A stretch of 64,000 nt of DNA from an uncultured Thermoplasmatales archaeon (GCA_964346655.1 CAYFVP010000055.1:5028-69027), one strand, 5' to 3'. Counted from the stretch's first letter, positions 29,834-43,997 are shown. Translations and numbers: made by a program. Notes: generated by a model from the letters alone, not told the origin.

Positions 29834-30472
29834 TTATCCTCTTACAAATGCATTAAATCTCTTTTCATCTCCTATGGTTGTGAGAGGTCCATGACCTGTA
29901 TAAACAATGGTATCATCAGGTAATGTGTAAAGGCGGGTTTTAATTGAATTAGCTAAATCTTCAAATGAACCTTTTCGAAAATCGGTTCTCCCGATACTTC
30001 CCTGAAAAAGGGTATCACCGCCAAACAACATTCGATTATAATGGAAACTTACTCCGCCAGGTGAATGTCCTGGTGTATGAATAACTGTGAGTTCATAATT
30101 ACCAACTTTAATCTTCTCTCCATCCTCAATATATCGATCTGGTTTGGGAGGTTGAGCAATTTCAATTCCCCAACGTCTAGCAGCATTTTCTCCATCTTCA
30201 ATAAAAAAGAAATCATCTTTATGTGCTAAAAACTCTGCTTTTAATTCTTTTTTAAGTGGAGCAACAGCCCCTACATGATCAAAATGACCATGTGTAGCAA
30301 GTATAAATTTAATTTCTATTCCAAGATTTTTTACCACTTTTAAAATAGTTTCTGCATCATCACCAGGATCAATTATTACTCCCTGGTTTGAATCCTCGTC
30401 CCATAAAATATAACAATTTGAAAATAAGGGACCAACAACGAGGGGTTCCACTTGTGGTTTAGAAGAGGTCAT
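29834..30472 (-). CDS. MBL-fold metallo-hydrolase (glyoxalase II-like)
   Basis: HGHFDHVG zinc motif; start placed at MTSSKPQ. Confidence 0.7.
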   Translation of the reverse strand: MTSSKPQVEPLVVGPLFSNCYILWDEDSNQGVIIDPGDDAETILKVVKNLGIEIKFILATHGHFDHVGAVAPLKKELKAEFLAHKDDFFFIEDGENAARRWGIEIAQPPKPDRYIEDGEKIKVGNYELTVIHTPGHSPGGVSFHYNRMLFGGDTLFQGSIGRTDFRKGSFEDLANSIKTRLYTLPDDTIVYTGHGPLTTIGDEKRFNAFVRG

Positions 30473-32972
30473 CGAGTTCATCACCTTCTCCATCACCTGC
30501 TGGCATTTTTCCAAATTGCTGGAGAAACTGTTGTATTAGCTCACTTTCTCGTTTGGTATACATAGGATCTGTTTCATACCAAAAATATCTTGCTTTAGTA
30601 TCTGAATTCAACTTTTCCTTAAGATCAGCTTGAATATTTTGTGTGCCTTTTATTACAATTATTACCTTGTTTTCATCTTTTAATTGATACACTCCTTCTT
30701 CAGCAGGAACCGCTAAAACATTTTCATTGTTGAGCTCCAGCCACTTATCAGGTGGAAATGTAACTGGACGTATATTCAAACGTAAATCACACCTTAAACA
30801 ACGTATTGATTCCTTTTTGGCTTGATCTTCATTGTAACAATTCTCCACTATTTCAAAATTATTTTTCCTTATATTTGGAGAAAGTTTTGGAGGATCTATT
30901 CTGTTCATATCTGCAAAACCTTCTAGAGGTCCAATATACGGATCTACCTTTATGGATGGAGCAAGTGTAGGATATATATTTCCATCTCCACCAAGGAACT
31001 TATCAATTGAAGTTGCTGCTGATGCTCCATCTGCAACAGCTTCTATTACTGAAGCTGGTCCCCTTACAACCTCACCACCTGCAAAAACACCAGGAAGATT
31101 TGTTTCCATATCTTTATTTACAGAAATCATCTCATTCTTACTATCAATTCCTTCTATCCATGAAAGATCTGAACTTTGACCAATGGCAAGTATTGCCTTA
31201 TCTGCTTCAATTATTTTAGTTACACAAGTGTTAAATTTTGGAGAAAATTTACCCTTCTCATCAAAAACAGAGGTGCATTTTATTAGCTCAATACCGGTGA
31301 TCTTTCCATTTTTGCTTAATATTTTATTTGGGCCCCAAGAAGGATGCATCACAACACCTTCATCCTTTGCATCTTTGATTTCCCAGTCATGTGCAGGCAT
31401 ATCTTTTTCACATTCTAGACAAGCAAGCTTGACATCACTGGCGCCCAAACGGATTGCGGTCCTTGCAACATCTATTGCAACATTGCCACCACCAATAACA
31501 ACCAACCGATCACTCATGGTTTTTACATTTTTCTTTTTTACATCTCTTAGAAAATCTAGGCCCCATTCTACTCCTTTCAGCTCTGAACCTTCAAGTGGGA
31601 TTTTCTTGCTAAGCCATGCTCCACTACCAATAAATATAGCATCAAAATCCTTACGAAGATCTGATAATTTTATCTTATTTCCAACTGAAGTATTGGTTTT
31701 AAACTCTACCTTTAAATCTTTTAACTTTCCAATTTCTTTATCAAGGACAGCTGGAGATAGACGGTAATCAGGAATTGCATATCTGAGCATACCACCAATA
31801 TTTCCTTCTGATTCAAAGATAGTTACACTATGACCTGATAAAGAAAGGTAATATGCAGCTGAAAGACCAGAGGGACCACTTCCAACAATAGCAACCTTTT
31901 TTCCAGTAGATTTTTTAGGTTTTAGTTTTAAAGAACCATTGTCATTATCTGTTGCAAACCATTTCAAAGCACATATGGACATTGGTTCATTTAGTTCCCC
32001 TCTACGACAAACATCCTCGCATGGATGAAAACAGACACGTCCTAGAATATCTGGGAAGGGTATCCTTTCTCTTATTACTGCTATTGCTTCAGAATAATTT
32101 CCCTTATTGATAAGATGTATATATCTAGGAATATCTACACCTGCAGGACAATTCGCAATGCAGGGAACAAGAACGTCTTCTCTTTCTTCACGAGGTAGGT
32201 CTTTGTCAGTTAAAGCTCCAGTTGGACAAACCTCAACACAATTACCACAGAACCTACAATCAGAATCATCATACATAGAACTCTTTGTAAGACCAACGAT
32301 TACCTTATCCTCATTAAAGACAAATCCCAAAGCATCAATACCCCTTAAATCACGGCAGGCCCTAACACATCTCAAGCAAGAAACACAGAAATTATAATCA
32401 CTTTCGAAAAGTGGTTCATTATTATGTTTTGGAAGGTTTTTAAAAATATATTTGGATAAATCCTGTCTAATACCAATGTATTGAGCAATCTTCTGTAACT
32501 CGCAGTAGCCAAGAAGTGGACAGCATCGCTCATCTTCTGGAACGTTAGTTGAACATTGAGTCCTTGAGCAACCATCCTGTTGGGCACATTGAAGACAAGC
32601 ATGTGGATGATCTCTTAATATCTCAGCAAGGTTGTCCCTACGTGCCTCTTTTACTATATCAGTTTCGGAGTTTACCTCCATTCCTTCTTCAGCAATAGTA
32701 TCACATGCGGTTACTAGATCTTCTCTACCCTTCATTTCAACAAGACATAACTGACAACCAGAAAACCCTTCTTTAGGACCTGAACCATCATTTCTATATT
32801 CACTGTTTTCTCTGAATATTTTTTCAACTGGTTTTTGACCATGTGAACTACCTAGACTAGGATGATAACATAATCTTGGGATATATATATCATTATCTTG
32901 AGCAGCCTCTAAAATTGTCATTCCTTCTTTACATTTGACACTATTACCATTAATATTTAATGTAATACTCAT
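30459..32972 (-). CDS. multi-domain FeS flavoprotein: N-terminal 2Fe-2S, then 4Fe-4S, then a GltD-like NAD(P)H/FAD module, then a C-terminal domain of unknown function (BzdV-like)
   Basis: MSITLNINGNSV...C...C 2Fe-2S N-terminus, multiple CxxC, VAIVGSGPSGLSAAYYL and VVIGGGNVAIDVA Rossmann motifs, acidic C-terminal tail. Confidence 0.6.
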   Translation of the reverse strand: MSITLNINGNSVKCKEGMTILEAAQDNDIYIPRLCYHPSLGSSHGQKPVEKIFRENSEYRNDGSGPKEGFSGCQLCLVEMKGREDLVTACDTIAEEGMEVNSETDIVKEARRDNLAEILRDHPHACLQCAQQDGCSRTQCSTNVPEDERCCPLLGYCELQKIAQYIGIRQDLSKYIFKNLPKHNNEPLFESDYNFCVSCLRCVRACRDLRGIDALGFVFNEDKVIVGLTKSSMYDDSDCRFCGNCVEVCPTGALTDKDLPREEREDVLVPCIANCPAGVDIPRYIHLINKGNYSEAIAVIRERIPFPDILGRVCFHPCEDVCRRGELNEPMSICALKWFATDNDNGSLKLKPKKSTGKKVAIVGSGPSGLSAAYYLSLSGHSVTIFESEGNIGGMLRYAIPDYRLSPAVLDKEIGKLKDLKVEFKTNTSVGNKIKLSDLRKDFDAIFIGSGAWLSKKIPLEGSELKGVEWGLDFLRDVKKKNVKTMSDRLVVIGGGNVAIDVARTAIRLGASDVKLACLECEKDMPAHDWEIKDAKDEGVVMHPSWGPNKILSKNGKITGIELIKCTSVFDEKGKFSPKFNTCVTKIIEADKAILAIGQSSDLSWIEGIDSKNEMISVNKDMETNLPGVFAGGEVVRGPASVIEAVADGASAATSIDKFLGGDGNIYPTLAPSIKVDPYIGPLEGFADMNRIDPPKLSPNIRKNNFEIVENCYNEDQAKKESIRCLRCDLRLNIRPVTFPPDKWLELNNENVLAVPAEEGVYQLKDENKVIIVIKGTQNIQADLKEKLNSDTKARYFWYETDPMYTKRESELIQQFLQQFGKMPAGDGEGDELDDLF

Positions 32973-33023
32973 GAAATTCCTCTTATTTTCAGGTAAAATG
33001 GGAAGAGATATTCCCAAATAGTC

Positions 33024-33311
33024 TCACCATGAATGCGAGATTGCGTCTTGTTTACATGCAGTTGTACAGGGTAAAGGTGGTCTGTTGGTCATTGGTTTAC
33101 AGGGAGCACAGGTATATTTAATCTTTTTTCGCTCTGCTTCAGTAACAAATGCTACTTCGTCATCAGAAAATGGGTCGTTTTCATCAGGTCCCACATCCAA
33201 AACACCATATGGACATGCGTTAATGCAATCCTTACAACCATTGCATTTATCTGTGTCTATTGCTATAAAATAATCCCCAGAACCATCCTTATATCCATAA
33301 TTTGCTATCAA
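33024..33311 (-). CDS. small 4Fe-4S ferredoxin
   Basis: CNGCKDCINACPYGV and a second cysteine cluster. Confidence 0.65.
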   Translation of the reverse strand: MIANYGYKDGSGDYFIAIDTDKCNGCKDCINACPYGVLDVGPDENDPFSDDEVAFVTEAERKKIKYTCAPCKPMTNRPPLPCTTACKQDAISHSW

Positions 33312-33326
33312 ATAAATTCCCCCAAG

Positions 33327-34238
33327 CTACTTTTTGCCTTTCTCCAGTAATGCCTTTGCAAAGAGAGCGGCACCTATTGCACCAGCGAGCTGTGTATCAT
33401 AATCTGTTTTCATTATAGGAATTCCAACTTCCTTTTCAAGTCTTACAACTACCCCCTTGTTTTTTGCAATTCCACCGGTTATGGCAAAATCTTCCTCAAT
33501 TCCTATTCTTTCAAGAAGTGTCATAATTCTATGAGCCATAGCAGAACAATAGGCAGCAAGGACTTTATTTTTAGGCCATCCCTCCCTTAGTAGACCAGTA
33601 GCCTCAGTTTTTGCATATACAACACAAGTGCTACTAACTGGTGGAGGTTCTTCCTTAACATCAAGTGAAAGATCTCCAACATCATTGATGGACACACCCA
33701 GAAGATCAGCAAACACCTCCATTCCACGACCTGTACCAGCAGCACATTTATCGTTCATAAGAAAATTTGTAACCTTTCCACGTTCGTCACAATGTATTGC
33801 TTTACAATCCTGCCCACCCATATCTAAAATTGTTCTAACTGTAGGTCCATACATAAAGTTACCGCCACGGGCATGACATGCAATCTCTGTTATTGCTCGT
33901 TGGCTAAAAGGAACATTTACACGGCCATAACCTGTTCCGACGGTATATTTTATATCCTCAAGTTTAAGTCCAGTATCTTCCATTGCCCAGTTTATCGCCT
34001 TCATTGCTGAATCAGGGCTGTCAGAGCCAGTTCTCATATTAGAATACGCATAAAGTTCACTATCTGCAAGAATAACTGCTTGTGAGCTAACAGAACCTAC
34101 ATCCACTCCAGAAGTAATCAGTTTGCCTTTCCAATCTAGATTAGGATTTGTCCAGCGGGATTCAGTCCATCTCCAAAATTCAAGTTTTTCAACCATTTTA
34201 CTTGCCTCCTTTCCAACCAGCTGCAGCAAGTGCTGCAC
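33327..34238 (-). CDS. benzoyl-CoA reductase BcrA/BcrD-type ATPase subunit (BadF/BadG/BcrA/BcrD family)
   Basis: GVDVGSVSSQAVIL, MGGQDCKAI, CAAGTGRGMEVFA. Confidence 0.7.
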   Translation of the reverse strand: MQHLLQLVGKEASKMVEKLEFWRWTESRWTNPNLDWKGKLITSGVDVGSVSSQAVILADSELYAYSNMRTGSDSPDSAMKAINWAMEDTGLKLEDIKYTVGTGYGRVNVPFSQRAITEIACHARGGNFMYGPTVRTILDMGGQDCKAIHCDERGKVTNFLMNDKCAAGTGRGMEVFADLLGVSINDVGDLSLDVKEEPPPVSSTCVVYAKTEATGLLREGWPKNKVLAAYCSAMAHRIMTLLERIGIEEDFAITGGIAKNKGVVVRLEKEVGIPIMKTDYDTQLAGAIGAALFAKALLEKGKK

Positions 34239-34977
34239 CTAATGCTCCAACATATTCAGGATCTTTTGGAACAACTACTTCAAGTCCAAGGTCTTTATTA
34301 AGCGAATCAACAAAACCTATATTTTTTGCAACACCTCCTGCAAGTAGCACATCTTTAGTAAAACCAATCTTTCTTATCATAGATGAAATCCTACTTGCCA
34401 TAGCATCATGAACCGCTTTTGCCATATTTGCTTTTGAAACCTTATTATGCACCATTGTTACAACTTCTGATTCTGCAAAAACAGTACACTGAGCATTCAT
34501 TGGAATATCCTCAGTCGCCTTTAAAGAGAGAGATCCAAGTTCTTCAAGATTGACTTCTAGTGCACGAGACATAGCTTCTGTAAATGCTCCTGCACCTGCT
34601 GCACATTTTTCATTTACCTCAAAATCTATTATTTTCCCAGTCTCATCACATCTCATACCTCTTCCTTCTTCAGCACCTACATCTATAACACTTCGAGTAG
34701 CTGGATGGAGAAATACACCACCAAGTGAATCACACCCTACAACAGATTTTGTTTCATCGTAAAAAGGAGCAAGTTTTTCACCTGTTCCAGTGGATATAGT
34801 CTTTTCAATGTCATCTTTTTTAATGCCTGCCTGTTTTAAAGCCTTTTCAACTGCTTCTTTTGCGCTTTTTTCCACTTCAAAACCTGCAAGAACATTTGTT
34901 TTTGCAAGAATTTTATTATCTTTCAAAATTACTACTTTAATATTTTTTGCACCTAAATCTATGCCCATAGTAATCAT
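34198..34977 (-). CDS. benzoyl-CoA reductase BcrD/BcrA-type ATPase subunit
   Basis: GIDLGAKNIKVVIL, CAAGAGAFTEAMS. Confidence 0.7.
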   Translation of the reverse strand: MITMGIDLGAKNIKVVILKDNKILAKTNVLAGFEVEKSAKEAVEKALKQAGIKKDDIEKTISTGTGEKLAPFYDETKSVVGCDSLGGVFLHPATRSVIDVGAEEGRGMRCDETGKIIDFEVNEKCAAGAGAFTEAMSRALEVNLEELGSLSLKATEDIPMNAQCTVFAESEVVTMVHNKVSKANMAKAVHDAMASRISSMIRKIGFTKDVLLAGGVAKNIGFVDSLNKDLGLEVVVPKDPEYVGALGAALAAAGWKGGK

Positions 34978-34991
34978 AATTATTTCCTCCG

Positions 34992-36332
34992 TTATTTCAC
35001 GCCAAGTGTCTCCATAAAAGCGTTAATCTTTGCCTTAGTTCGTGCTTCATCAAACTCCCTTTCATCTGCGTTGTTTCCTTCAAAAGCCATAACAGGAAAA
35101 CCTGCATTAAGAAGTGCAAGTCTATTTTCAGCTATGCCAACAGTTAATCCTTCACAACCTCTATTATAGTGAAGCATTACACCATTAAGTTTCCACTCTT
35201 TTGCAATCCTTATCATCATTTCACTTTTTAGGTGACATGAATAGAAATGCTGCCATTCAGGTTTATGTAATTCATATTTAACATATTCATAAAGAGCTTG
35301 ATCTCTACTTGAAAACTCTATATCTGGAATTGTTTTTGCACCCCAGGTTCCATCTTTTTTAACCTCCCATTGACCAATAAGTCCAAAAGTATAAAGTGAA
35401 CCAATTGAGATACATCCAAATTTTTCCAAATATCGAAATATACTTAAAAAACTCCATGGAGGTTGCGTATCTGACATAACTCTAACTCGTTCGTTGGGAA
35501 CTGCTGCAATACCTCTTTTGACTCTGTCTTTTACTTCTGGAAGAAGATCTTTTTCATAAAAATCTGCCACTTGTTTCCCTGATTTTTGTAGAGTTCCAAG
35601 GACATAGAGTGAGTAAATAGATTTTTCATCAAGTGGTGCAGGTATTGCCTTATTTAATACACAAATCTCTGCCCATTTTGAAGTTGATATAAAATGGTTT
35701 CTTATTGCTTTAAATAATAATTCATCATTGTAATTCCTGTGAGTTACCTTTTCTAAAAATTTAATTCCATCTTTCAACTGCTCTACTACATATTTTATTT
35801 TACTATCGGTAAGCTCGTTGGCAGGTCCAACAGCATTATCAACAGTAAACATAGGAATTCCACCTTCAAGGTCTGATACGACCTGATACCACTTTGCATG
35901 CGAACAACAGATATGATCCTGCCAAATAAAATCAGGTTTCGGAAATCCTAATGGTTTTGCCCCTTCAAATCTTGGGACAAACTCTCCATCCTTATACCCA
36001 AATGCAAATTTATCAGTAATAATAGAACCCCAATAATTCCGCATATAAGAACATAGATCCCGCGGATAACCCTTTACCTCTGTTGCTTCCATGCATTCCA
36101 ATGAAAGCTCCTTGTCAAATGCAATTGTAGCACTATAAGGTTCACTTGTGATAGGATAAACATCATCTCCCAATCCTGCTGGGATTGCATCAAATGTCCA
36201 GGCTCCACCTGCCCATCGTAATCCTCCTTTGTCCTGGGCTTCAGCATAGTCCTGATAGAATTTCATTCGAATATTTTTTGCTTTGTTCCAGCATTTTAAT
36301 TTCTCAGTTGGATATTTAGTCTCTAATTCCAT
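34992..36332 (-). CDS. bcrB: benzoyl-CoA reductase / 2-hydroxyacyl-CoA dehydratase BcrB/BadE-type subunit
   Basis: 446 aa; family-typical N-terminus and size. Confidence 0.7.
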
Positions 36333-37960: not shown

Positions 37961-38098
37961 TCAATCTACCCGAATAATTTTGACTTTCTTCTCAATCCAA
38001 TCAGGAGGAAGATAAATTCGACCACTATTTCCACACTTTTTTACTATTTTTTCAATCATTTCCTGACCATATACCTCAAACTTGGTTGAATTATCCAT
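37961..38098 (-). CDS. unannotated 45-aa AbrB/MazE/SpoVT-like swapped-hairpin DNA-binding protein
   Basis: KKCGNSGRIYLPPDW resembles the KxWGNSxAVRIP loop; GGGG SD at -9; stop lies 11 nt before the GNAT ATG. Confidence 0.4.
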   Translation of the reverse strand: MDNSTKFEVYGQEMIEKIVKKCGNSGRIYLPPDWIEKKVKIIRVD

Positions 38099-38108
38099 AA
38101 AAACCCCA

Positions 38109-38141
38109 TAGCTATATTATAGCTATATTATAACTATATTT
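38109..38141. repeat. three tandem 11-bp direct repeats TAGCTATATTA / TAGCTATATTA / TAACTATATTT
   Basis: read directly; sits -11 to -43 upstream of the small AbrB-like ORF in a divergent promoter region. Confidence 0.8.
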
Positions 38142-38318: not shown

Positions 38319-39062
38319 ATGGAATTAGAAGGAAAAACAGCTATTGTTACAGGTGGAAGTATTGGAATTGGTGCAACTATAGCAATAGAACTTGCCCGTG
38401 AAGGAGCAAATATTGCCATTAATTATAGAAAACATGACGCAGAAGCAAAAGAAGTTGCAAAAGAAATTGAGAAGTTAGGTAAAAAATGTCTTGTTGTTAA
38501 AGCTGATGTAACAAGTTATTCCGATGCTGAAACAATGTTTAATAAAGTAAAAGAAAAATTTGGAGGAATAGATATTTTGGTTTGCAATGCAGGTATTAAC
38601 ATAGATCGAGTTATTTGGAAAATGAGTGAAAAAGATTGGGATAATGTAATAAATGTAAATCTCAAAGGATATTTTATTTATAATAAACTAGCAGCTGCTT
38701 ACTTTAAAGAACAAAGATCAGGTAAAATTGTAAACATTACATCTATCAATGGTCTTAGAGGAAAATTTGGTCAATGTAATTATTCTGCGTCAAAAGGAGG
38801 CATTATTTCACTTACCAAAGCTTTGGCAAAGGAAGTTGGTAAATTTAATGTCAATGTCAATGCTGTTGCTCCAGGTATGGTAATAACTGAAATGGCAAAA
38901 AACATACCACCTGAATTTCTCCAAAAAGCAATTGACGAAACTGTTTTAGGTCGGATTGCTACAACTAAAGATGTCGCAAATGTTGTAGTTTTTTTATGTA
39001 GTGAAAAATCAAGACATATAACAGGAACTGTTATACAGGTTGATGGAGGTCAATATATATAA
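38319..39062 (+). CDS. short-chain dehydrogenase/reductase (FabG / 3-hydroxyacyl-CoA dehydrogenase-like)
   Basis: TGGSIGIG, NAG, YxxxK (YSASK). Confidence 0.8.
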   Translation: MELEGKTAIVTGGSIGIGATIAIELAREGANIAINYRKHDAEAKEVAKEIEKLGKKCLVVKADVTSYSDAETMFNKVKEKFGGIDILVCNAGINIDRVIWKMSEKDWDNVINVNLKGYFIYNKLAAAYFKEQRSGKIVNITSINGLRGKFGQCNYSASKGGIISLTKALAKEVGKFNVNVNAVAPGMVITEMAKNIPPEFLQKAIDETVLGRIATTKDVANVVVFLCSEKSRHITGTVIQVDGGQYI

Positions 39063-39078
39063 AACGTAGGTGAAATAA

Positions 39079-40230
39079 GTGAAAGTAGGTATTGTTGGAA
39101 TTGGACATGGAAAATTTGGTAATCGAAGCGATTCAACTGTTCAGGAACTTGCATTTGAACCCTTTAAACAGGCAATTGAAGATGCCAAGAACCTCCGAAG
39201 AAAAGACATCGATGCATTAATCGTAGGTTCAGTTCCAGAGTACCACATGCAACGATCACTACCAGGTGTTGTTGCAGAGTATGTTGGAATGAATCCAAAA
39301 TCAACATGGCTTACTGAAGCAGCATGTGCCTCAGGTAGTGCTGCGATTAGAACTGCTTATATGTCCATTAAATCAGGAATGCATGATATCGTTGCTGTTA
39401 TCGGCGTTCAAAAGATGAGGGAACTATCAACTGAAGAAATCTTAGCATTAATGGGTAGAGTTGGAGATGTTCAATGGGAGTCAATTTTTGGAACTACATT
39501 TCCTGGTTACTATGCACTATATGCCAATAGACATATGCATGAATTTGGAACTACAAGAGAGCAAATGGCCCTTGTTGCAGTTAAAAATCATTATTATGGA
39601 TCAATGAATCCACATGCGTTTTTTCAAAAAGAAGTTACATTAGATCGTGTAATTGGTTCAGAAAATGTTGCTTATCCCGTAAGTGTCTTTGACTGTTGTG
39701 CTAACGCTGATGGCGCCGCATGTGTAATAATGACTAATGATAAATTAGCAAAAAAATTCAATGATACACCAATATGGTTTAATGGTCTTGGATCTTCCTC
39801 TGCTCAGATGTCACTTTTAAGGAGACCTAATCTTGTTGAAATTCCAAGTGCAGTAGAGGCTGCAAAACAAGCTTATAACCATGCAAAACTTAAGCCATCT
39901 GATATTCAGGTTGCTGATGTTCATGATTGTTTTACTATAGCAGAAATTATGGCATATGAAAACCTGGGATTCTGTCCAAAAGGCAAGGGTGGTAAGTTTA
40001 TAGAGGAAAAACAATCATATATCGGTGGTAAAACACCAGTCAATGTTGACGGGGGACTAAAGGCAAAGGGTCATCCAGTTGGTGCTACAGGTGTTTCAAT
40101 GACTGTGGAAATTGTAAAACAATTAAGAGGTGAAGCTGGAAAAAGACAGGTTCCTGGTGTAGAAATAGGACTTACACACAACGTTGGTGGTATAGGTCAA
40201 TATACCTTTGTGCAAATATTAGGGAGGTAA
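39079..40230 (+). CDS. archaeal-type thiolase (acetyl-CoA C-acyltransferase, SCP-x-like)
   Basis: thiolase fold with active-site Cys in AACASGSAA. Confidence 0.8.
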   Translation: MKVGIVGIGHGKFGNRSDSTVQELAFEPFKQAIEDAKNLRRKDIDALIVGSVPEYHMQRSLPGVVAEYVGMNPKSTWLTEAACASGSAAIRTAYMSIKSGMHDIVAVIGVQKMRELSTEEILALMGRVGDVQWESIFGTTFPGYYALYANRHMHEFGTTREQMALVAVKNHYYGSMNPHAFFQKEVTLDRVIGSENVAYPVSVFDCCANADGAACVIMTNDKLAKKFNDTPIWFNGLGSSSAQMSLLRRPNLVEIPSAVEAAKQAYNHAKLKPSDIQVADVHDCFTIAEIMAYENLGFCPKGKGGKFIEEKQSYIGGKTPVNVDGGLKAKGHPVGATGVSMTVEIVKQLRGEAGKRQVPGVEIGLTHNVGGIGQYTFVQILGR

Positions 40231-40235
40231 ATTAA

Positions 40236-40655
40236 ATGCCATTCAAATATTTTGGAAAAATAAACTTCACACCTTATACTAAAGTAGACAAATTTGCTGA
40301 CTATCTTCACAAGGGAAAGCTCATGGGAACTAGGTGTAAAAAATGCAATGAGAGATATTTCCCGCCCCGTGCAGATTGTCTCAAATGTATGAATGATACT
40401 TTTGAATGGATAGAATACTCTGGAAAAGGAACACTTCATAGCTTTACTAAAATATATGCCGCGCCTAAGGGCTTTGAAGACATAGCTCCATACACCTTGG
40501 GAGTTGCAGATCTTGAAGAAGGTGGGCGTGTAATTGCCTGGATTGAAAATATCTCAGATAAAGATATAAAAATCGGCATGCCAATCAAGATTGTTCCGAA
40601 AATATTTGAGGAAATTGAAGAAATCAAATTATACTATACAATTGAAAAACCTTAG
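40236..40655 (+). CDS. DUF35 OB-fold / zinc-ribbon protein partner of thiolase
   Basis: CKKCNERYFPPRADCLKC zinc ribbon; adjacent to and co-oriented with the thiolase. Confidence 0.75.
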   Translation: MPFKYFGKINFTPYTKVDKFADYLHKGKLMGTRCKKCNERYFPPRADCLKCMNDTFEWIEYSGKGTLHSFTKIYAAPKGFEDIAPYTLGVADLEEGGRVIAWIENISDKDIKIGMPIKIVPKIFEEIEEIKLYYTIEKP

Positions 40656-41794
40656 GATTCAGGTTTCTTTAATGGTTTTGGAAGAACTGCTTCTTTTAGT
40701 TTATCATTAAAGGGATGACCTTCAGCTAAAAGCTGGCGATATTTCACAAAATCAATAACATCTTTACCAGTTAATTTTTTATTATTAAATGCATGAAAAC
40801 CAAGAAACGCCTCTGTTGCCATGTTTGCAGCAAGCCAATGACGATTTGCAAGTTTTGTTTGATCCCAGAAGAATTTCTTTTTCATTCTAATTCCATCAAT
40901 GGATTTAATTAAACATCCTGGCATTAAATTGGTATAAGTCCAAAGTATCCTATCAATTGTCTTATCCAAAAGTTCAAAGTCTGTAGGATAAGATTTAATT
41001 AACTCCCTTGCTTTTTTAAAATCTTCACCTTTTAAAAATTCTCCATATACAATTTCACTGTCTTCTATATATTTATCTATGATAACTGTTGGATTTCTTA
41101 CAAATTTCGCGCCCTTTTTTAAAACAGGAACTACCTTACTAACAAGTCCTAATCTTTTCATTTTATATGCAGACCAAAGTTCACAGGAAATACAGTTCCA
41201 CATTGCGTCTTCTATTCCTAAATACCATGGAAGAAAATCTGTTGAACCACCATCTGGTGCAGAGCCATGTCTAGGACCAGCTTGACCGAAAATTGCTGTA
41301 TCTGAAGAAACAGAAATATCACAAGCCATCCCTATTTCTTGACCGCCTGCAACTCTCATGCCATTTACCCTACAAATTATTGGTTTTTTACAATTTAATA
41401 TAGCATCAACCATGGCATTGAATAAATCCATGTATTCTCCATATTCATTTGGTCTTCCAGAATAATATTCAGCATATTCCTTGGTATTTCCTCCAGTGCA
41501 AAAGGCTCTATCACCAACTGCAGTAAATATTGCTGCAACAACACTACGATCCATTGACGCTTTATGAAAACCTGCAATAACTCCTTTTACCATTTTTGTA
41601 GTGTATGAATTATATTGCTTAGGATTGTTAAGTATAATCCATGCTGAATTCAGTCCTTTTACTTTTTTTCCCTCAGAATCTACAATTGGCTTTAATTCAT
41701 AAATTATACTTGGAGGTTCTTTACTAAAGTATTCATCTCCCCATAGGTTATGATTTTTAATTTCATCATCTTTTGGTAACCAATCTAAAGGCAT
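40652..41794 (-). CDS. crotonase-superfamily enzyme, 380 aa; candidate 6-oxocyclohex-1-ene-1-carbonyl-CoA hydrolase (Oah/BamA-like)
   Basis: crotonase core (AIFTAVGDRAFCTGGN, NGMRVAGGQEIG) plus a long C-terminal extension; size matches Oah/BamA. Confidence 0.45.
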   Translation of the reverse strand: MPLDWLPKDDEIKNHNLWGDEYFSKEPPSIIYELKPIVDSEGKKVKGLNSAWIILNNPKQYNSYTTKMVKGVIAGFHKASMDRSVVAAIFTAVGDRAFCTGGNTKEYAEYYSGRPNEYGEYMDLFNAMVDAILNCKKPIICRVNGMRVAGGQEIGMACDISVSSDTAIFGQAGPRHGSAPDGGSTDFLPWYLGIEDAMWNCISCELWSAYKMKRLGLVSKVVPVLKKGAKFVRNPTVIIDKYIEDSEIVYGEFLKGEDFKKARELIKSYPTDFELLDKTIDRILWTYTNLMPGCLIKSIDGIRMKKKFFWDQTKLANRHWLAANMATEAFLGFHAFNNKKLTGKDVIDFVKYRQLLAEGHPFNDKLKEAVLPKPLKKPES

Positions 41795-42038
41795 TTTAAC
41801 CCTCCCTCATGATAGAAAGCTTAGAGCAGAATGATATTACATTATTTATATCTTTTTTAATTCCTAACTAAAAATTTAACAATATTTTATAATAAAATCA
41901 TAAATTCAATTTTCTTATATATTTAAGTTTAATAGAAGTTTATTTTAACTTTTCAAAAAATAGTTGTTATAATTTAGTAAAATAAAATAAATAAGATTAT
42001 ATACTCTCCACTATTTCACAAAATCCGGGGAGAAAGTT

Positions 42039-43211
42039 ATGAAAGCAGCAGTTTTATATGGAAAAGAAGAATTAAAAATAGTTCCTGATTTTGATGATCC
42101 TGTTATGAAAGAATCGGATGTTTTAATAAACTCGAAATATACTGGTTTATGTAGTACAGATAGAACACTGTATCGTGGTTTTGTTCCATTTACACCACCA
42201 TTAATAATAGGTCATGAAATCGCAGGAGTTGTAGAAGATGTTGGTAAATCTGCTAAAGGTTTAGATGTTGGTGATCATGTAATTGTCCCTCCAGTTTATC
42301 CAGGATGTGATAATGAAAATTGCCAAGCATGCAGAGAGGGACTTACAAACAGATGTAAAAATTCTATTTTTATAGGCCATGGAGTACATGGTGGTGATGC
42401 TGAATTAATTGCAGTCCCATCAAAATATACATTTAAAATTAAAGAGGGTGTTTCATTGGATGAGGCTTGTATTATACCAGATGCCGTGTCAACACCATTT
42501 CATGCATTAAAAAGTAGATCTATTCCACCACATATAATTCAAAATATACCAAATTCTAAAAGGTTATTTGAAAGACAAACCCATTGGTTAAAAGGAAAAA
42601 ATATTGTAATTTTTGGTGTAGGTGGTGTTGGAGGTCCAGCAGTAAACCTTGCTAAGCGTTATTTTCAAGCAAAAAATATTCTTGCTGTTGATATTTTTGA
42701 TAATAAACTTGAGTATGCAAAAAAACTTGGTGCAACCCATGTAGTTAATTCTTACACCTATTTTAAAGAAAATAATATTCAAATAAATGAACTAACTGGA
42801 AGAGAAAAAGCAAAGGCAATTTCTGGTCTTGCAAGAAATATTTCTTCCAATTTTTCAGAGGATAAATTCCAGGTTGATTGCGTTCTTGACTGCTCCGGTG
42901 TACCCGATACATTTCCAGTAGCCGTTGAAACTGTAAGTAAAAATAGAACTGTTATTCAAGTCGGATGGCCACCAAAACCAGTTAGTGAGTTTTTAAACCA
43001 AAAAATCATGGATAAATATCTTACAATTAACGGAACATGGGCATGTCCAATGGATGAAATGGAAGAAATTGTGAAAGCAGTTGAAGAAGAAACAGTTGAT
43101 TTAAATTTACTTGTAACAAACAAAGATTATTCTTTAGACAAATTAGAAACTGCAATTCATGATTTAGAAGCAGGAAAAATTCTTGGACGAGCAACCATTT
43201 GTGTTGAATAG
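42039..43211 (+). CDS. zinc-dependent medium-chain alcohol dehydrogenase family; candidate 6-hydroxycyclohex-1-ene-1-carbonyl-CoA dehydrogenase (Had-like)
   Basis: GHEIAGVVEDVG, structural-zinc cysteines CDNENCQACREGLTNRC, GVGGVG Rossmann motif. Confidence 0.6.
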   Translation: MKAAVLYGKEELKIVPDFDDPVMKESDVLINSKYTGLCSTDRTLYRGFVPFTPPLIIGHEIAGVVEDVGKSAKGLDVGDHVIVPPVYPGCDNENCQACREGLTNRCKNSIFIGHGVHGGDAELIAVPSKYTFKIKEGVSLDEACIIPDAVSTPFHALKSRSIPPHIIQNIPNSKRLFERQTHWLKGKNIVIFGVGGVGGPAVNLAKRYFQAKNILAVDIFDNKLEYAKKLGATHVVNSYTYFKENNIQINELTGREKAKAISGLARNISSNFSEDKFQVDCVLDCSGVPDTFPVAVETVSKNRTVIQVGWPPKPVSEFLNQKIMDKYLTINGTWACPMDEMEEIVKAVEEETVDLNLLVTNKDYSLDKLETAIHDLEAGKILGRATICVE

Positions 43212-43229
43212 ATATAAGGGGATTTTGTT

Positions 43230-43997
43230 ATGGATTATAAGACAATTATTGTTGATGAAAAAGATATGATCGGAAAAATCATATTCAATAGACAACCTTT
43301 AAATGTTTTGAATATTGAAATGATGAAAGAGATAAATCAGGCATTAAAAGATTTTCAAGGTAAAAATCTAAAAGTTTTAATATTCGCTGCCAATGGAAAG
43401 GCTTTTTCTGCAGGTGTTGATGTTTTAGATCATACAAAGGATAAAGTAAAAGATATGATACAGGTCTTTCATGATATTTTCAGAAATCTAAATAAAATCA
43501 ATGCTCCAACTGTTGCAATTGTAAATGGATCAGCACTTGGAGGTGGATGTGAAGTAGCAACTTTTTGTGATATAGTAATTGCATCAGAAAAATCTAAATT
43601 TGGACAACCAGAAATAAAAGTAGGAGTTTTTCCACCAGTTGCTGCTGCGTTCTTTCCAAAAATTATGTGGAATAAAAAAGCTCTAGAGCTTATTATGACC
43701 GGAGATATTATTGGTGCAAATGAAGCAAAAGAACTTGGCCTTGTAAATCATATACTTCCAGTTGAAAATTTTGAAGAAGCTGCGGATTTACTTATCAAAG
43801 AAAAACTTGCAAGTAATAGTGCAAAAATTCTTCAATTAACAAAGAGAGCTTTTTTTGAAGGTGTAACTAATAATTATTCTGAATCTATTAAAAAAATCGA
43901 GGATATTTACTTAAATGAGCTTATGAAGACCAATGATGCAAATGAAGGTCTTGCTGCATTTCTTGAAAAAAGGCAGCCTGTTTGGAAAAACAAATAA
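43230..43997 (+). CDS. enoyl-CoA hydratase; candidate cyclohexa-1,5-diene-1-carbonyl-CoA hydratase (Dch-like)
   Basis: FSAGVDV and NGSALGGGCE crotonase motifs; 255 aa. Confidence 0.65.
   Translation: MDYKTIIVDEKDMIGKIIFNRQPLNVLNIEMMKEINQALKDFQGKNLKVLIFAANGKAFSAGVDVLDHTKDKVKDMIQVFHDIFRNLNKINAPTVAIVNGSALGGGCEVATFCDIVIASEKSKFGQPEIKVGVFPPVAAAFFPKIMWNKKALELIMTGDIIGANEAKELGLVNHILPVENFEEAADLLIKEKLASNSAKILQLTKRAFFEGVTNNYSESIKKIEDIYLNELMKTNDANEGLAAFLEKRQPVWKNK

What the first reader, a model, noticed from the sequence alone, without database searches (positions are those of the whole stretch)
30459..43997. Apparently complete anaerobic benzoyl-CoA route: class I BCR-like bcrCB plus two ATPases and ferredoxin, with Oah-, Had- and Dch-like genes, in a low-GC archaeon
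On the minus strand, a BcrC-type gene (36346..37479), a BcrB-type gene (34992..36332), two ATPase genes (34198..34977, 33327..34238) and a ferredoxin (33024..33311) follow the Thauera bcrCBAD-fdx arrangement. Within 5 kb lie a 380-aa crotonase with C-terminal extension (Oah/BamA size), a Zn-ADH (Had family) and a 255-aa enoyl-CoA hydratase (Dch size). KorABC, which can regenerate reduced ferredoxin, lies at 9.5-12 kb, and an aromatic-acid-type CoA ligase at 23098..24654. The same subunit families also build 2-hydroxyacyl-CoA dehydratases, so the substrate is inferred, not demonstrated.
Basis: partly seen in the sequence, partly recalled or inferred. Interest (0 to 1): 0.6.

Follow-up and report, generated by a model that had tools for sequence, protein, structure and literature searches.

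The report
Archaeal bzd-type benzoyl-CoA degradation gene island
This stretch of a low-GC sediment archaeon (Thermoplasmatota) carries a real gene set for breaking down benzoate-type aromatic rings without oxygen; such clusters are already reported from related uncultured archaea, so it is a well-supported but largely known finding.

Summary
All ORFs are at the stated coordinates. [quoted passage not shown] It is the Azoarcus/Aromatoleum bzdNOPQ type, not the Thauera bcrCBAD type. BzdN, BzdO and BzdQ pass NCBI equivalog cut-offs. 16 of the 18 BzdO active-site and neighbouring residues checked against the 2025 BzdNO crystal structure are conserved, including every cluster, catalytic and ring-contact residue. 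The 380-aa crotonase passes the Oah equivalog model over its full length. The Zn-ADH and the 255-aa hydratase fail the Had and Dch equivalog cut-offs. They are supported by synteny: one Desulfohalobiaceae operon holds the same six-gene lower module. The nearest relatives are Thermoplasmatales/MBG-D MAGs (BzdO 90-95% aa, about 80% nt). Class I BCR with dch/had/oah in Thermoplasmata MAGs was published in 2019, so this is a new member of a known kind. Completeness is not shown: no ligase passes the benzoate-CoA ligase model, and no acyl-CoA dehydrogenase domain turned up among the window ORFs scanned. The more novel point is a side observation. A 45-aa DUF2080 protein plus a GNAT, preceded by three TAGCTA-N5 repeats, heads the operon. 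The same pair sits in front of class I BCR genes, class II BCR genes or lower-pathway genes in every context sampled.

The parts
38109..38141 (.). Three tandem 11-bp units (TAGCTA-N5), a candidate operator or promoter element upstream of the first gene of the bzd operon
   Evidence: Read from the sequence. It is the only site in the window matching TAGCTAYAATRTAGCTA with up to 3 mismatches. The same motif lies at the same position in MBG-D loci, and a degenerate form (ACAATGTAGYY) occurs in GC-richer Thermoplasmatota loci.
37961..38098 (-). 45-aa DUF2080/AbrB-MazE-like small protein, a candidate DNA-binding partner of the GNAT
   Evidence: Weak Pfam DUF2080 match of 20.7 bits, and PGAP names homologs DUF2080. 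It is 65-98% identical in Thermoplasmatota loci and 52-55% in Heimdall/Hod/Hermod loci, always upstream of GNAT-bzdN. All seven unrelated contexts sampled show DUF2080-GNAT next to BCR or lower-pathway genes.
37500..37949 (-). GNAT acetyltransferase, a candidate BadL-like regulatory enzyme or acyl-CoA sensor
   Evidence: Pfam Acetyltransf_1. It lies immediately upstream of bzdN in 33 loci. It is 145-174 aa in archaea and 217-241 aa, with an N-terminal winged-helix domain, in bacteria. BadL provides a precedent (PMC6191541).
36346..37479 (-). BzdN, the BCR subunit carrying the [8Fe-9S] double-cubane cluster
   Evidence: TIGR03190 scores 485.4 bits (cut-off 453.8). PDB 8S02_B gives E=5.7e-137 at 53% identity. 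Seven Cys plus R53, R267, R290, H330, S239 and Q324 are conserved. It falls in the BzdN clade of the NJ tree.
34992..36332 (-). BzdO, the catalytic BCR subunit with the aqua-[4Fe-4S] cluster and the benzoyl-CoA site
   Evidence: TIGR03191 scores 619.2 bits (cut-off 448.6). PDB 8S02_A gives E=9.5e-176 at 58% identity. C95, C128, C380, E65, H131, W46, Y97, Q274, Y298, L302 and L383 are conserved, and S44 is replaced by Gly.
34198..34977 (-). BzdP-like ATPase (BcrD-like)
   Evidence: PF01869. TIGR00241 scores 209 bits (cut-off 125), and BcrD (151 bits) scores above BcrA (106 bits). The cluster Cys residues C125 and C164 are present. It is 52-58% identical to the P subunit in bzd loci of many phyla.
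33327..34196 (-). BzdQ ATPase (BcrA-like)
   Evidence: TIGR03192 scores 435.2 bits (cut-off 380.2). The cluster Cys residues C165 and C205 (numbering of the 303-aa ORF) are present. The ATG at 34196 gives a 1-nt gap after bzdP.
33024..33311 (-). 8-Cys 2x[4Fe-4S] ferredoxin in the BzdM position
   Evidence: Pfam Fer4 families. Cys residues lie at 23, 26, 29, 33, 68, 71, 82 and 86. It follows bzdQ in nearly all related loci at 54-92% identity.
30459..33017 (-). 852-aa BzdV-like iron-sulfur flavoprotein: 2Fe-2S and 4Fe-4S domains, a GltD/NfnB-like NAD(P)H-FAD module, and DUF7508
   Evidence: Pfam and NCBIfam domain hits and PDB hits to NfnB-like modules. It follows the ferredoxin in most loci, and it follows bzdPQ directly in L087, L089 and L092. 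BzdV is annotated as a putative NADPH:ferredoxin oxidoreductase (PMC5658619).
29834..30514 (-). MBL-fold hydrolase (glyoxalase-II-like) of unknown role, possibly a thioesterase
   Evidence: Pfam Lactamase_B; GloB model at 102 bits, below its cut-off. It is conserved downstream of the BzdV-like gene in MBG-D loci.
27980..29809 (-). Tungsten-type aldehyde:ferredoxin oxidoreductase (AorB-like) with an ATC start; not BamB
   Evidence: AFOR_N and AFOR_C domains. The best PDB hit is 1AOR at 1e-117, while BamB 4Z3W reaches only 1e-61. The upstream in-frame sequence and the Shine-Dalgarno site support the ATC start.
27525..27983 (-). 17-Cys poly-[4Fe-4S] electron-transfer subunit (AorA-like)
   Evidence: Matches the N-terminal region of the PadI model and DmsB-like models. 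It has 17 Cys and overlaps the AOR gene by 4 nt.
25617..26852 (+). FAD/NAD(P) oxidoreductase (AorC/PadH-like)
   Evidence: The best PDB hit is 8C0Z_E, the AOR-associated FAD subunit, at 5e-49. The PadH model scores 283 bits, below its cut-off of 475.
38319..39062 (+). SDR, a candidate 3-hydroxypimelyl-CoA dehydrogenase
   Evidence: FabG/acetoacetyl-CoA reductase-like. Homologs lie inside Oah-containing operons in L048, L075, L077 and L086.
39079..40230 (+). SCP-x-type thiolase, a candidate 3-oxopimelyl-CoA thiolase
   Evidence: NF004720 scores 498 bits (cut-off 420). It is 51% identical to the thiolase in the L086 lower-pathway operon.
40236..40655 (+). DUF35 / OB-fold zinc-ribbon thiolase partner (BbsA-like)
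   Evidence: Pfam zf-ChsH2 and OB_ChsH2_C; the BbsA model scores 53 bits. It is syntenic with the thiolase in L075 and L086.
40652..41794 (-). [quoted passage not shown]
   Evidence: TIGR03200 scores 569.2 bits (cut-off 464.45) over profile positions 1-360 of 360. It is 57-75% identical to Oah genes in bacterial loci.
42039..43211 (+). Divergent Zn-dependent medium-chain dehydrogenase, the Had candidate
   Evidence: ADH_N and ADH_zinc_N domains. TIGR03201 scores only 112 bits (cut-off 339). Residues at the catalytic Cys38/His59 and the structural four-Cys positions are present. It is 31% identical to the Had-like gene of the Hermodarchaeota bzd cluster and carries two insertions. The block Oah | ZnADH-ECH is conserved in MBG-D loci, and a Zn-ADH sits beside Oah in L086.
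43230..43997 (+). [quoted passage not shown]
   Evidence: TIGR03189 scores 158 bits (cut-off 292.5). Glu108 and Glu128 lie in GGGCE and QPEIKVG, the canonical crotonase contexts (motif assignment from my own knowledge). It is 57% identical to the hydratase next to bzdN in Hermodarchaeota and 53% to the one in the L086 operon.

Best explanation
The region is a catabolic island for anaerobic degradation of benzoyl-CoA in an uncultured Thermoplasmatota (MBG-D-like) archaeon. One minus-strand operon (38098 down to about 27525) encodes a small DUF2080 protein, a GNAT, the four subunits of a bzd-type ATP-dependent class I benzoyl-CoA reductase (BzdN, O, P, Q), an 8-Cys ferredoxin, a BzdV-like NAD(P)H-linked iron-sulfur flavoprotein, an MBL-fold hydrolase and a tungsten-type aldehyde oxidoreductase with its FeS subunit. 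The proposed mechanism follows, with steps marked as shown or inferred. Reduced ferredoxin, regenerated by the BzdV-like protein, by the nearby 2-oxoacid:ferredoxin oxidoreductase or by AOR, donates electrons to the [4Fe-4S] cluster bridging BzdP and BzdQ. ATP hydrolysis lowers the potential. Electrons pass through the [8Fe-9S] cluster of BzdN to the water-bearing [4Fe-4S] cluster of BzdO. That cluster reduces benzoyl-CoA to cyclohexa-1,5-diene-1-carbonyl-CoA by hydrogen-atom transfer; this mechanism is taken from the Aromatoleum BzdNO structure, and the residues are shown to be conserved here. The adjacent module then completes the route. The 255-aa hydratase hydrates the dienoyl-CoA (Dch step, inferred). 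The Zn-ADH oxidises the 6-hydroxy product (Had step, inferred and the weakest link). Oah opens the ring to 3-hydroxypimelyl-CoA (family membership shown). The SDR and the thiolase/DUF35 pair convert that to glutaryl-CoA and acetyl-CoA (inferred). The DUF2080-GNAT pair with the TAGCTA repeats probably regulates the operon. The activating CoA ligase and the glutaryl-CoA steps are not identified with confidence.
For: BzdN, BzdO, BzdQ and Oah pass NCBI equivalog cut-offs. BzdO and BzdN match the solved Aromatoleum BzdNO chains at E=1e-175 and 6e-137. The three cluster Cys, Glu65, His131 and the benzoyl-ring and thioester contacts of BzdO are conserved, as are seven Cys and the Arg/His shell of BzdN (residues from PMC11971306). 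The NJ tree places the N subunit inside the BzdN clade, away from HadC, the Thauera-type MbdN and DCCP. The ATPases carry the two cluster Cys each. The order N-O-P-Q-ferredoxin-BzdV-like is conserved in more than 60 loci from archaea and bacteria. The six genes SDR, thiolase, DUF35, Oah, Zn-ADH and hydratase recur as one operon, next to a TRAP transporter and an aryl-CoA-ligase-like gene, in a Desulfohalobiaceae contig. They also recur as blocks in MBG-D MAGs. An Aminicenantes homolog locus also carries xanthine-dehydrogenase-family Mo-enzyme subunits that I read as 4-hydroxybenzoyl-CoA-reductase-like, though no Hcr model was scored. Published MAG studies reached the same reading for Thermoplasmata and Asgard archaea (PMC6472368; PMC8163825; bioRxiv 763623).
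Against: There is no biochemical or expression evidence for this lineage. The Zn-ADH (112 bits against 339) and the hydratase (158 bits against 292.5) fail the Had and Dch equivalog cut-offs. No ligase passes the benzoate-CoA ligase model: 61857..63506 scores 355 bits against 375, and 23008..24654 does not list TIGR02262 among its best 25 families. No acyl-CoA (glutaryl-CoA) dehydrogenase domain turned up among the window ORFs scanned. Ser44 of BzdO, which contacts Glu65 and lies near C3 of the ring, is Gly here, and BzdO carries an insertion of about 15 aa. An ATP-consuming class I BCR in a presumably fermentative, energy-limited archaeon is energetically puzzling, as noted in PMC6472368.
Confidence: 0.8

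Rival explanations
1. The reductase is a genuine bzd-type aryl-CoA reductase, but its physiological substrate is not plain benzoyl-CoA. It could be a substituted benzoyl-CoA or another aryl-CoA derived from aromatic amino acids or lignin monomers, with the downstream enzymes adapted to match.
For: The Had and Dch candidates are divergent and fail the equivalog cut-offs. BzdO has Ser44 replaced by Gly next to the ring C3 position and carries a lineage-specific insertion. An AOR complex and a lone HGD-D plus ligase module are associated with the cluster.
Against: All residues lining the benzoyl ring (W46, Y97, L302, L383) and the thioester (Y97, Y298, Q274) are identical to those of the benzoyl-CoA-bound structure. 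Oah passes its equivalog model.
Confidence: 0.12
2. The pathway is partial, or serves another purpose than growth on benzoate. It might dispose of benzoyl-CoA formed during phenylalanine or phenylpropanoid fermentation, or act as a ferredoxin-oxidising electron sink.
For: No confident benzoate-CoA ligase and no acyl-CoA dehydrogenase domain were found in the window. MBG-D-type hallmarks of protein degradation lie next door, including an extracellular C25 peptidase. A ligase, lone HGD-D and activase module is present in the window, and in an Asgard locus the homologous ligase and HGD-D sit with MaoC hydratases and a thiolase, suggesting side-chain beta-oxidation. The energetic problem of a class I BCR in fermenters remains.
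Against: The missing genes may lie elsewhere in the genome, since the window covers only 64 kb. The lower module down to glutaryl-CoA is present and syntenic.
Confidence: 0.1
3. The N and O subunits with their ATPases form a 2-hydroxyacyl-CoA dehydratase with its activator.
For: They share the Pfam family HGD-D and the BcrAD_BadFG ATPases.
Against: The HadB and HadC equivalog scores are 127 and 202 bits against cut-offs of 750 and 700. The tree separates the N subunit from HadC. His131, which is Ala in HadB, and the double-cubane Cys set are present. Two different ATPase subunits are encoded in the operon, as in BCRs; 2-hydroxyacyl-CoA dehydratase activators such as HgdC are, from my own knowledge, homodimers.
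Confidence: 0.02
4. The window is bacterial DNA, or a chimeric contig, mis-assigned to an archaeon.
For: Bzd clusters are patchily distributed and clearly exchanged between archaea and bacteria. The window contains no rRNA, tRNA or ribosomal-protein gene.
Against: More than ten independent Thermoplasmatales/Thermoplasmatota MAGs, including four records deposited as chromosomes, share 10-20 kb of synteny at 70-95% aa and about 80% nt identity. The flanking genes (HdrA2-like, C25 peptidase) fit MBG-D.
Confidence: 0.03

Closest known systems
[quoted passage not shown] CIB (BzdNO structures, PDB 8S02 as listed by the PDB search, 8S1T, 8S2R)
   Same: The subunit order is N-O-P-Q followed by a ferredoxin and a BzdV-like oxidoreductase. 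BzdO is 58% and BzdN 53% identical. All cluster ligands, Glu65/His131 and the ring and thioester contacts are conserved. Oah is present.
   Different: There is no BzdR regulator; a DUF2080 protein plus a GNAT stands in its place. There are no bzdSTU genes. Ser44 is Gly, and BzdO has an insertion of about 15 aa. The Had and Dch candidates are divergent. AOR genes are co-transcribed. The host is an archaeon and presumably a strict anaerobe.
Bzd-type BCR clusters reported from MAGs of Thermoplasmata, Bathyarchaeota and Asgard archaea (Dong et al. 2019, PMC6472368; Zhang et al. 2021, PMC8163825; Farag et al., bioRxiv 763623; Zheng et al. 2022, PMC9239135)
   Same: It is the same kind of cluster in the same kind of organism and habitat. 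BzdO is 90-95% identical to Thermoplasmatales MAG proteins that PGAP already names 'benzoyl-CoA reductase, bzd-type, subunit O'.
   Different: It is a different species-level genome, about 80% nt identical to the nearest representative genomes. Loki/Hermod-type Asgard clusters carry a 322-aa BadI/MenB-like hydrolase instead of a true Oah, and they place dch and had directly upstream of bzdN.
Ferroglobus placidus benzoyl-CoA pathway; according to the papers read here, the cultured archaeon that couples benzoate degradation via a class I BCR with iron reduction (PMC6472368; PMC5736913)
   Same: An archaeal ATP-dependent class I BCR in a strict anaerobe.
   Different: It is a hyperthermophilic iron reducer of the Archaeoglobi.
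Thauera aromatica BcrCBAD and T. chlorobenzoica MbdONQP (Thauera-type class I BCR)
   Same: The same enzyme class and overall architecture.
   Different: Only about 30% identity to MbdN. The TIGR02259-02263 scores are far below their cut-offs. The ATPase order is D-like then A-like, not A then D.
BadL (GNAT) / BadM (Rrf2 repressor) control of badDEFGAB in Rhodopseudomonas palustris, with homologs in Geobacter and Magnetospirillum (PMC6191541)
   Same: A small GNAT encoded beside a small DNA-binding protein at a BCR operon.
   Different: The partner here is a 45-aa DUF2080/AbrB-like protein, or a fused winged helix in some bacteria, and not an Rrf2 protein. Homology of this GNAT to BadL was not tested because no BadL sequence was available.

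Membership tests
Class I benzoyl-CoA reductase, bzd type (BzdNOPQ) | BzdN, BzdO and BzdQ reach the NCBIfam equivalog cut-offs (TIGR03190, TIGR03191, TIGR03192) | tested here: met
   485.4 bits against 453.8, 619.2 against 448.6, and 435.2 against 380.2.
Class I benzoyl-CoA reductase, bzd type (BzdNOPQ) | A fourth subunit, BzdP: a second, different BcrAD-type ATPase encoded between O and Q | tested here: inconclusive
   No BzdP-specific model appeared among the hits. The domain model TIGR00241 is passed (209 against 125). BcrD is the best full-length model at 151 bits, below its cut-off. The position is conserved, and identity to the P subunits of other bzd loci is 52-58%.
Class I benzoyl-CoA reductase, bzd type (BzdNOPQ) | BzdO active site: three Cys ligands of the aqua-[4Fe-4S] cluster (C95, C128, C380), Glu65 and His131 | tested here: met
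   All five are conserved in the alignment to 8S02_A. The residues come from PMC11971306.
Class I benzoyl-CoA reductase, bzd type (BzdNOPQ) | Benzoyl ring and thioester contacts (W46, Y97, L302, L383, Y298, Q274, S44) | tested here: met
   Six of the seven are identical, and S44 is replaced by Gly43 (residues).
Class I benzoyl-CoA reductase, bzd type (BzdNOPQ) | BzdN double-cubane [8Fe-9S] site: six Cys ligands and the shell R53, R267, R290, H330 | tested here: met
   Seven of the nine Cys of the reference are conserved (36, 73, 76, 100, 263, 293, 327), together with all four shell residues and S239 and Q324. Which six Cys are the ligands was not stated in the text I read.
Class I benzoyl-CoA reductase, bzd type (BzdNOPQ) | ATP-dependent reduction of benzoyl-CoA to cyclohexa-1,5-diene-1-carbonyl-CoA | not testable with these tools
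   This needs an enzyme assay.
Class I BCR, Thauera type (BcrCBAD) | Equivalog models TIGR02263 (C), TIGR02260 (B), TIGR02259 (A), TIGR02261 (D) | tested here: not met
   C scores 148 bits against 421. The B model is not listed for BzdO at E<=1e-5. A scores 149 against 578 and D scores 151 against 313. MbdN lies outside the clade in the tree.
2-hydroxyacyl-CoA dehydratase (HadBC/HgdAB/FldBC) | Alpha and beta subunits reach the HadB/HadC equivalog scores and group with the dehydratases | tested here: not met
   127 bits against 750 and 202 against 700. Identity to HadC is 30%, and the tree separates them. His131 is present where HadB has Ala.
[quoted passage not shown] | Full-length match to TIGR03200, including the C-terminal extension beyond the crotonase core | tested here: met
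   569.2 bits against 464.45, over profile positions 1-360 of 360 and residues 12-371.
[quoted passage not shown] | TIGR03201 equivalog cut-off | tested here: not met
   111.9 bits against 338.65, ranking seventh among the Zn-ADH models. The assignment rests on conserved adjacency to Oah and the hydratase and on Cys/His residues at the canonical Zn-ADH positions (positions assigned from my own knowledge).
[quoted passage not shown] | TIGR03189 equivalog cut-off | tested here: not met
   158.2 bits against 292.5. The protein is 57% and 53% identical to the hydratases inside the Hermodarchaeota bzd cluster and the Desulfohalobiaceae lower-pathway operon. The Hermodarchaeota protein has Dch as its best model, at 174 bits.
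Class II BCR (BamB) | The AOR-family subunit is closest to BamB (PDB 4Z3W) | tested here: not met
   The window AOR is closest to P. furiosus AOR (1e-117), with BamB at 1e-61. By contrast, the L081 protein matches BamB at 4.5e-301.
Benzoate-CoA ligase family (TIGR02262) | Subfamily cut-off of 375.25 bits | tested here: not met
   61857..63506 scores 354.9 bits, with MbcS-like and acetate-CoA ligase models scoring higher. For 23008..24654 the model is not among the best 25, which are fatty-acid-type ligases.
BadL/BadM-type regulation of BCR operons | A GNAT paired with an Rrf2-family repressor at the BCR operon | tested here: not met
   The GNAT is present, but its partner is a DUF2080-like 45-aa protein and not an Rrf2 protein. 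The resemblance is functional and by analogy only.

The most novel reading that the evidence does not exclude
The 45-aa DUF2080-like protein and the adjacent GNAT form a widespread regulatory module for benzoyl-CoA pathway operons that I found described in none of the papers searched. In some bacteria the same unit appears as a single winged-helix-GNAT fusion. The module occurs in archaea and bacteria. It heads class I (bzd) BCR operons, class II (bamB) BCR operons and Oah/Had/Dch/thiolase operons alike. The small protein would bind the TAGCTA-N5 direct repeats. The GNAT would sense an acyl-CoA or make a small-molecule effector, making the pair a non-orthologous counterpart of BadL/BadM and BzdR.
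Probability: 0.4. Interest if true: 0.55.

Novelty: new member of a known kind. Interest (0 to 1): 0.32.

Why it matters
The result confirms, with residue-level evidence from the 2025 BzdNO structure, that abundant sediment archaea of the MBG-D/Thermoplasmatales group carry an intact ATP-dependent ring-reducing enzyme and the ring-opening hydrolase. This supports the view from MAG surveys that archaea take part in anaerobic turnover of aromatic carbon. It also sharpens the open question of how energy-limited fermenters can afford a class I BCR. It is not a new discovery. The practical value lies in a corrected annotation: bzd type, which steps are solid and which are weak, and which ligase claim is unsupported. 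The DUF2080-GNAT pair and its repeat operator give a testable lead on how these operons are controlled.

Tried and rejected
(1) Thauera-type BCR was rejected on HMM scores and the tree. (2) A 2-hydroxyacyl-CoA dehydratase was rejected. (3) The neighbouring AOR as a class II BCR (BamB) was rejected, because it is closest to P. furiosus AOR. (4) The SDR as the Had-equivalent was considered because Oah-SDR-hydratase-bzdN is contiguous in a Brocadiaceae locus. It was made less likely by the Desulfohalobiaceae operon, which holds both a Zn-ADH and an SDR, but it is not excluded. (5) The 416-aa ORF at 18557..19807 as the missing second subunit of the lone HGD-D protein showed no similarity, and the Asgard neighbour gene is a thiolase, not a second HGD-D. 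(6) A search for the TAGCTA repeat motif elsewhere in the window, for example in the Oah/Zn-ADH intergenic region, found no other site. (7) tRNA and Rfam scans for taxonomic markers found nothing. (8) In the NJ tree, the L066 sequence was mis-extracted, with only 14 aligned residues, and should be ignored. (9) A direct test of GNAT homology to the characterised BadL failed, because the homolog search returned only close Thermoplasmatales relatives. (10) No structure prediction or fold search was run, because sequence-level matches to solved structures were already decisive.

Full report
OBSERVATION. The window has 27-42% GC, mostly about 33%. Three starts were refined. BzdQ most likely begins at the ATG at 34196, because the TIGR03192 alignment starts at residue 12 of the longer ORF. 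The GNAT begins at the ATG at 37949, as also called in the public record. The AOR gene upstream of the MBL gene reads in frame back to an ATC at 29809, which lies behind a GAGGTGA Shine-Dalgarno site; this restores the 40 N-terminal residues missing from the AFOR_N match. From 38098 down to 27525 the eleven minus-strand genes are separated by -56 to +24 nt, and most are preceded by a GGAGG- or GGTGA-like site. The LysE gene follows after a further 40 nt. This looks like one operon.

WHAT THE REDUCTASE IS. NCBIfam equivalog models assign 36346..37479 to BzdN (485 bits, cut-off 454), 34992..36332 to BzdO (619, cut-off 449) and 33327..34238 to BzdQ (435, cut-off 380). The Thauera-type models (BcrC 148 against 421, BcrA 149 against 578, BcrD 151 against 313) and the 2-hydroxyisocaproyl-CoA dehydratase models (HadB 127 against 750, HadC 202 against 700) fall far below their cut-offs. 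The closest solved structures are the Aromatoleum sp. CIB chains BzdO (8S02_A, E=9.5e-176, 58% identity) and BzdN (8S02_B, E=5.7e-137, 53% identity). HadBC and the Thauera-type MbdON are distant.

I took the functional residues from the structure paper (PMC11971306). The three Cys ligands of the water-bearing [4Fe-4S] cluster (C95, C128, C380) are conserved. So are the acid/base pair Glu65/His131 (His131 is Ala in HadB), the ring contacts W46, Y97, L302 and L383, and the thioester contacts Y97, Y298 and Q274. Only Ser44 is replaced by Gly and Thr125 by Asp. In BzdN, seven Cys and R53, R267, R290, H330, S239 and Q324 around the [8Fe-9S] cluster are conserved. BzdO also has an insertion of about 15 residues after position 113. 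This matches the 446-452 aa length of its closest relatives, against about 437 aa elsewhere.

A neighbour-joining tree places the window's N subunit within a Thermoplasmatota subclade of the BzdN clade, with Aromatoleum BzdN basal. HadC, MbdN and the double-cubane protein DCCP lie outside (the L066 row is an extraction artefact). Both ATPases have the KCAAG and CxV[FY]A cysteines expected for the inter-subunit [4Fe-4S] cluster (the role of these Cys is from my own knowledge of HgdC-type ATPases). The first ATPase is BcrD-like and the second BcrA-like. The order is therefore C-B-D-A, which is bzdNOPQ and not bcrCBAD. The dehydratase rival is rejected at the sequence level.

THE REST OF THE ROUTE. 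The 255-aa hydratase scores 158 bits on the Dch model (cut-off 292.5). The Zn-ADH scores 112 bits on the Had model (cut-off 339). By the family test neither is a member.

Context, however, supports both roles. The block Oah | Zn-ADH-hydratase and the block SDR-thiolase-DUF35 are conserved next to bzd in MBG-D MAGs. The hydratase is 57% identical to the one beside bzdN in a Hermodarchaeota cluster, whose own best model is Dch. In a Desulfohalobiaceae contig, a single operon holds thiolase (51% identity), DUF35 (38%), Zn-ADH (26%), Oah (57%), SDR (45%) and hydratase (53%), downstream of a TRAP transporter and a PaaK-type aryl-CoA-ligase-like gene. That operon contains both a Zn-ADH and an SDR. 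This argues that the two have separate roles: Had, and 3-hydroxypimelyl-CoA dehydrogenase working with the thiolase/DUF35 pair. An Oah-SDR-hydratase-bzdN arrangement in a Brocadiaceae locus keeps the alternative (SDR as Had) alive.

The ferredoxin has eight Cys. It is followed by an 852-aa protein with 2Fe-2S, 4Fe-4S and GltD/NfnB-like NAD(P)H-FAD domains. This protein occupies the BzdV role; BzdV is a putative NADPH:ferredoxin oxidoreductase (PMC5658619). It follows the ferredoxin or bzdPQ in most related loci.

The 'KorABC' genes pass only the generic 2-oxoacid:acceptor oxidoreductase alpha model (501 against 411) and fail the 2-oxoglutarate-specific one (335 against 579). In two Planctomycetota-type loci, homologs of the alpha and beta subunits lie a few kb downstream of the BzdV-like gene.

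The ligase at 23008..24654 matches fatty-acid-type ligase models best. Even so, 47-58% homologs recur within a few kb of bzd clusters in Asgard loci and one Acidobacteriota locus. A second ligase at 61857..63506 comes closer to the benzoate-CoA ligase family (355 against 375 bits) but still fails. No acyl-CoA dehydrogenase domain turned up among the window ORFs scanned, so 'complete' is not established.

ORGANISM AND PRIOR KNOWLEDGE. The best genome matches for BzdO (90-95% aa) are Thermoplasmatales/Thermoplasmata MAGs, including SG8-52-3 and SM1-50 and four records deposited as chromosomes. Asgard and various bacterial phyla follow at about 65-70%. Ten to twenty kb of synteny at 70-95% aa and about 80% nt identity links the window to these MAGs. 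A 100% identical GNAT lies on a 78-kb contig of assembly GCA_012974965.1. No tRNA or Rfam family was found in the window.

Class I bcr genes with dch, had and oah in Thermoplasmata MAGs were reported in 2019 (PMC6472368). Bzd-type clusters with BzdV, ferredoxin, Dch and Had were reported in Asgard archaea (PMC8163825; bioRxiv 763623). bcr genes were reported in 'Ca. Yaplasmales' (PMC9239135). PGAP already names the close homologs 'benzoyl-CoA reductase, bzd-type, subunit O'. The finding is therefore a correct rediscovery. What remains open is biochemical proof in these archaea and the energetic puzzle of an ATP-dependent BCR in presumed fermenters.

SIDE OBSERVATION WITH MORE NOVELTY. A 45-aa ORF (37961..38098, minus strand) lies 11 nt upstream of the GNAT, and the GNAT lies 20 nt upstream of bzdN. 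It is a weak DUF2080/MazE-AbrB match. It is up to 98% identical in Thermoplasmatota loci, and in several of them more conserved than the neighbouring enzymes. It is 52-55% identical in Heimdall/Hod/Hermod loci, always in the same position. In 33 loci a GNAT sits immediately upstream of bzdN. The archaeal GNATs are 145-174 aa. The bacterial ones are 217-241 aa and carry an N-terminal winged-helix domain, a Rosetta-stone link between a DNA-binding module and this GNAT.

I sampled seven DUF2080 homologs from unrelated contigs, and each showed DUF2080-GNAT followed by benzoyl-CoA pathway genes. The downstream genes were:
- bamB (E=4.5e-301 to PDB 4Z3W) with bamCDE-like genes in Deltaproteobacteria;
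- Oah in a Spirochaetes contig;
- the six-gene lower operon in Desulfohalobiaceae;
- bzdP-bzdQ-BzdV-like genes in three contigs;
- a 259-aa crotonase in one contig.

Directly upstream of the small gene lie three 11-bp units, TAGCTA-N5 (38109..38141). This site is unique in the window and is conserved in position and sequence in related loci. In R. palustris, the GNAT BadL makes acetamidobenzoates that release the Rrf2 repressor BadM from the BCR operon, and BadL/BadM pairs occur in Geobacter and Magnetospirillum (PMC6191541). The pair found here would be an analogous module with a different DNA-binding partner. DUF2080 proteins also act as antitoxins (PMC10440598), so a toxin-antitoxin reading is a rival. 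The strict pathway association and the fusion argue against that rival. None of the four library papers that mention DUF2080 concerns benzoyl-CoA metabolism.

OTHER CONTEXT. The AOR (closest to P. furiosus AOR, not BamB) appears to be co-transcribed with its 17-Cys FeS subunit. An AorC-like FAD protein lies nearby (best PDB hit 8C0Z_E). The trio resembles the AorABC aldehyde oxidoreductase of Aromatoleum. It could link aldehyde oxidation to ferredoxin reduction for the BCR; this is an inference.

VERDICT. Novelty: a new member of a known kind. Interest is modest at 0.32. The most novel reading not excluded is the DUF2080-GNAT regulator (probability about 0.4).

Noticed in passing
window 37961..38098 (-), 37500..37949 (-), 38109..38141: A 45-aa DUF2080/AbrB-like protein plus a GNAT head the bzd operon, preceded by three TAGCTA-N5 direct repeats. 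The same pair, or a winged-helix-GNAT fusion in bacteria, precedes class I BCR, class II BCR (bamB) or Oah/Had/Dch/thiolase operons in every context sampled. It is a candidate pathway regulator, analogous to BadL/BadM.
   Followed up: yes
window 27525..29809 (-) and 25617..26852 (+): A tungsten-type aldehyde:ferredoxin oxidoreductase with a non-canonical ATC start, a 17-Cys FeS subunit and an AorC-like FAD protein form an AorABC-like set. The first two appear co-transcribed with the bzd operon. The set is conserved next to bzd in about half of the MBG-D loci, and at about 45% identity in Hod/Hermod loci. It is not BamB.
   Followed up: partly
window 19942..24654: A lone HGD-D family protein (21870..23066; HadB-like at 229 bits, with no second subunit) lies next to an AMP-ligase and is divergent from an activase-type ATPase (20874..21680) and a radical SAM gene (19942..20919). 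A 70% homolog of the HGD-D protein and a 55% homolog of the ligase lie beside the bzd cluster in Promethearchaeota, together with MaoC hydratases and a thiolase. The function is unknown; side-chain beta-oxidation feeding benzoyl-CoA is possible.
   Followed up: partly
window 34992..36332 (-): BzdO has Gly in place of Ser44, a residue near ring C3 that hydrogen-bonds Glu65 in the solved structure. It also has an insertion of about 15 aa ([17 protein letters not shown]) after residue 113. The insertion appears typical of the 446-452-aa MBG-D clade.
   Followed up: partly
L087, L089, L090, L092 (metagenome contigs): Some contigs carry DUF2080-GNAT-bzdP-bzdQ-BzdV-like with no bzdN or bzdO between them. 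In these the ATPase module and its putative electron-donor protein form a unit separate from the catalytic subunits.
   Followed up: no
L019 5859..8787 (Hermodarchaeota) and similar Asgard loci: The gene taken as 'Oah' in Asgard bzd clusters is a 322-aa BadI/MenB-like crotonase (BadI 203 bits, Oah 187 bits, both failing their cut-offs). It lacks the Oah C-terminal part. Ring cleavage in those clusters may therefore differ from that in this window.
   Followed up: partly
window 25..12002: A dense set of low-potential redox genes lies here: a CCG-domain protein, two OFOR-beta-like paralogs, an NfnAB-like pair (2422..4646), an HdrA2-like protein (4932..6929; 835 bits), a TfrA-like flavoprotein (7637..9256) and a three-subunit 2-oxoacid:ferredoxin oxidoreductase. 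These are possible sources of reduced ferredoxin.
   Followed up: partly
window 12248..16685: A methylglutaconyl/gamma-carboxygeranoyl-CoA-hydratase-like crotonase, a biotin carboxylase, a BCCP and a carboxyltransferase lie together. The set looks like an acyl-CoA carboxylase set (leucine/isovalerate-type catabolism) and not part of the benzoyl-CoA route.
   Followed up: no
window 44106..47258 (+): A 1050-aa protein with a hydrophobic N-terminal segment (read from the translation, not tested with a signal-peptide tool) carries a C25 (gingipain-like) peptidase domain and propeptide. It lies directly downstream of the Dch candidate and fits the protein-degrading lifestyle proposed for MBG-D.
   Followed up: no
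window 54660..63506 (-): An HpaB-family protein (4-hydroxyphenylacetate hydroxylase family, which from my own knowledge also includes 4-hydroxybutyryl-CoA dehydratase), DUF6125, EtfAB and a second acyl-CoA ligase lie here. The ligase is the closest in the window to the benzoate-CoA ligase family, at 355 bits against 375. The ORF of a DNA methylase (53822..54718) overlaps the start of the HpaB-family ORF.
   Followed up: partly
L075 4256..8004 (Aminicenantes): An FAD subunit and a fused 2Fe-2S/molybdopterin subunit of the xanthine dehydrogenase family lie between the lower-pathway genes and HTH-GNAT-bzdN. I read them as 4-hydroxybenzoyl-CoA-reductase-like, which would support the aromatic context of the homologous bacterial clusters. 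Only Pfam domains were scored.
   Followed up: no
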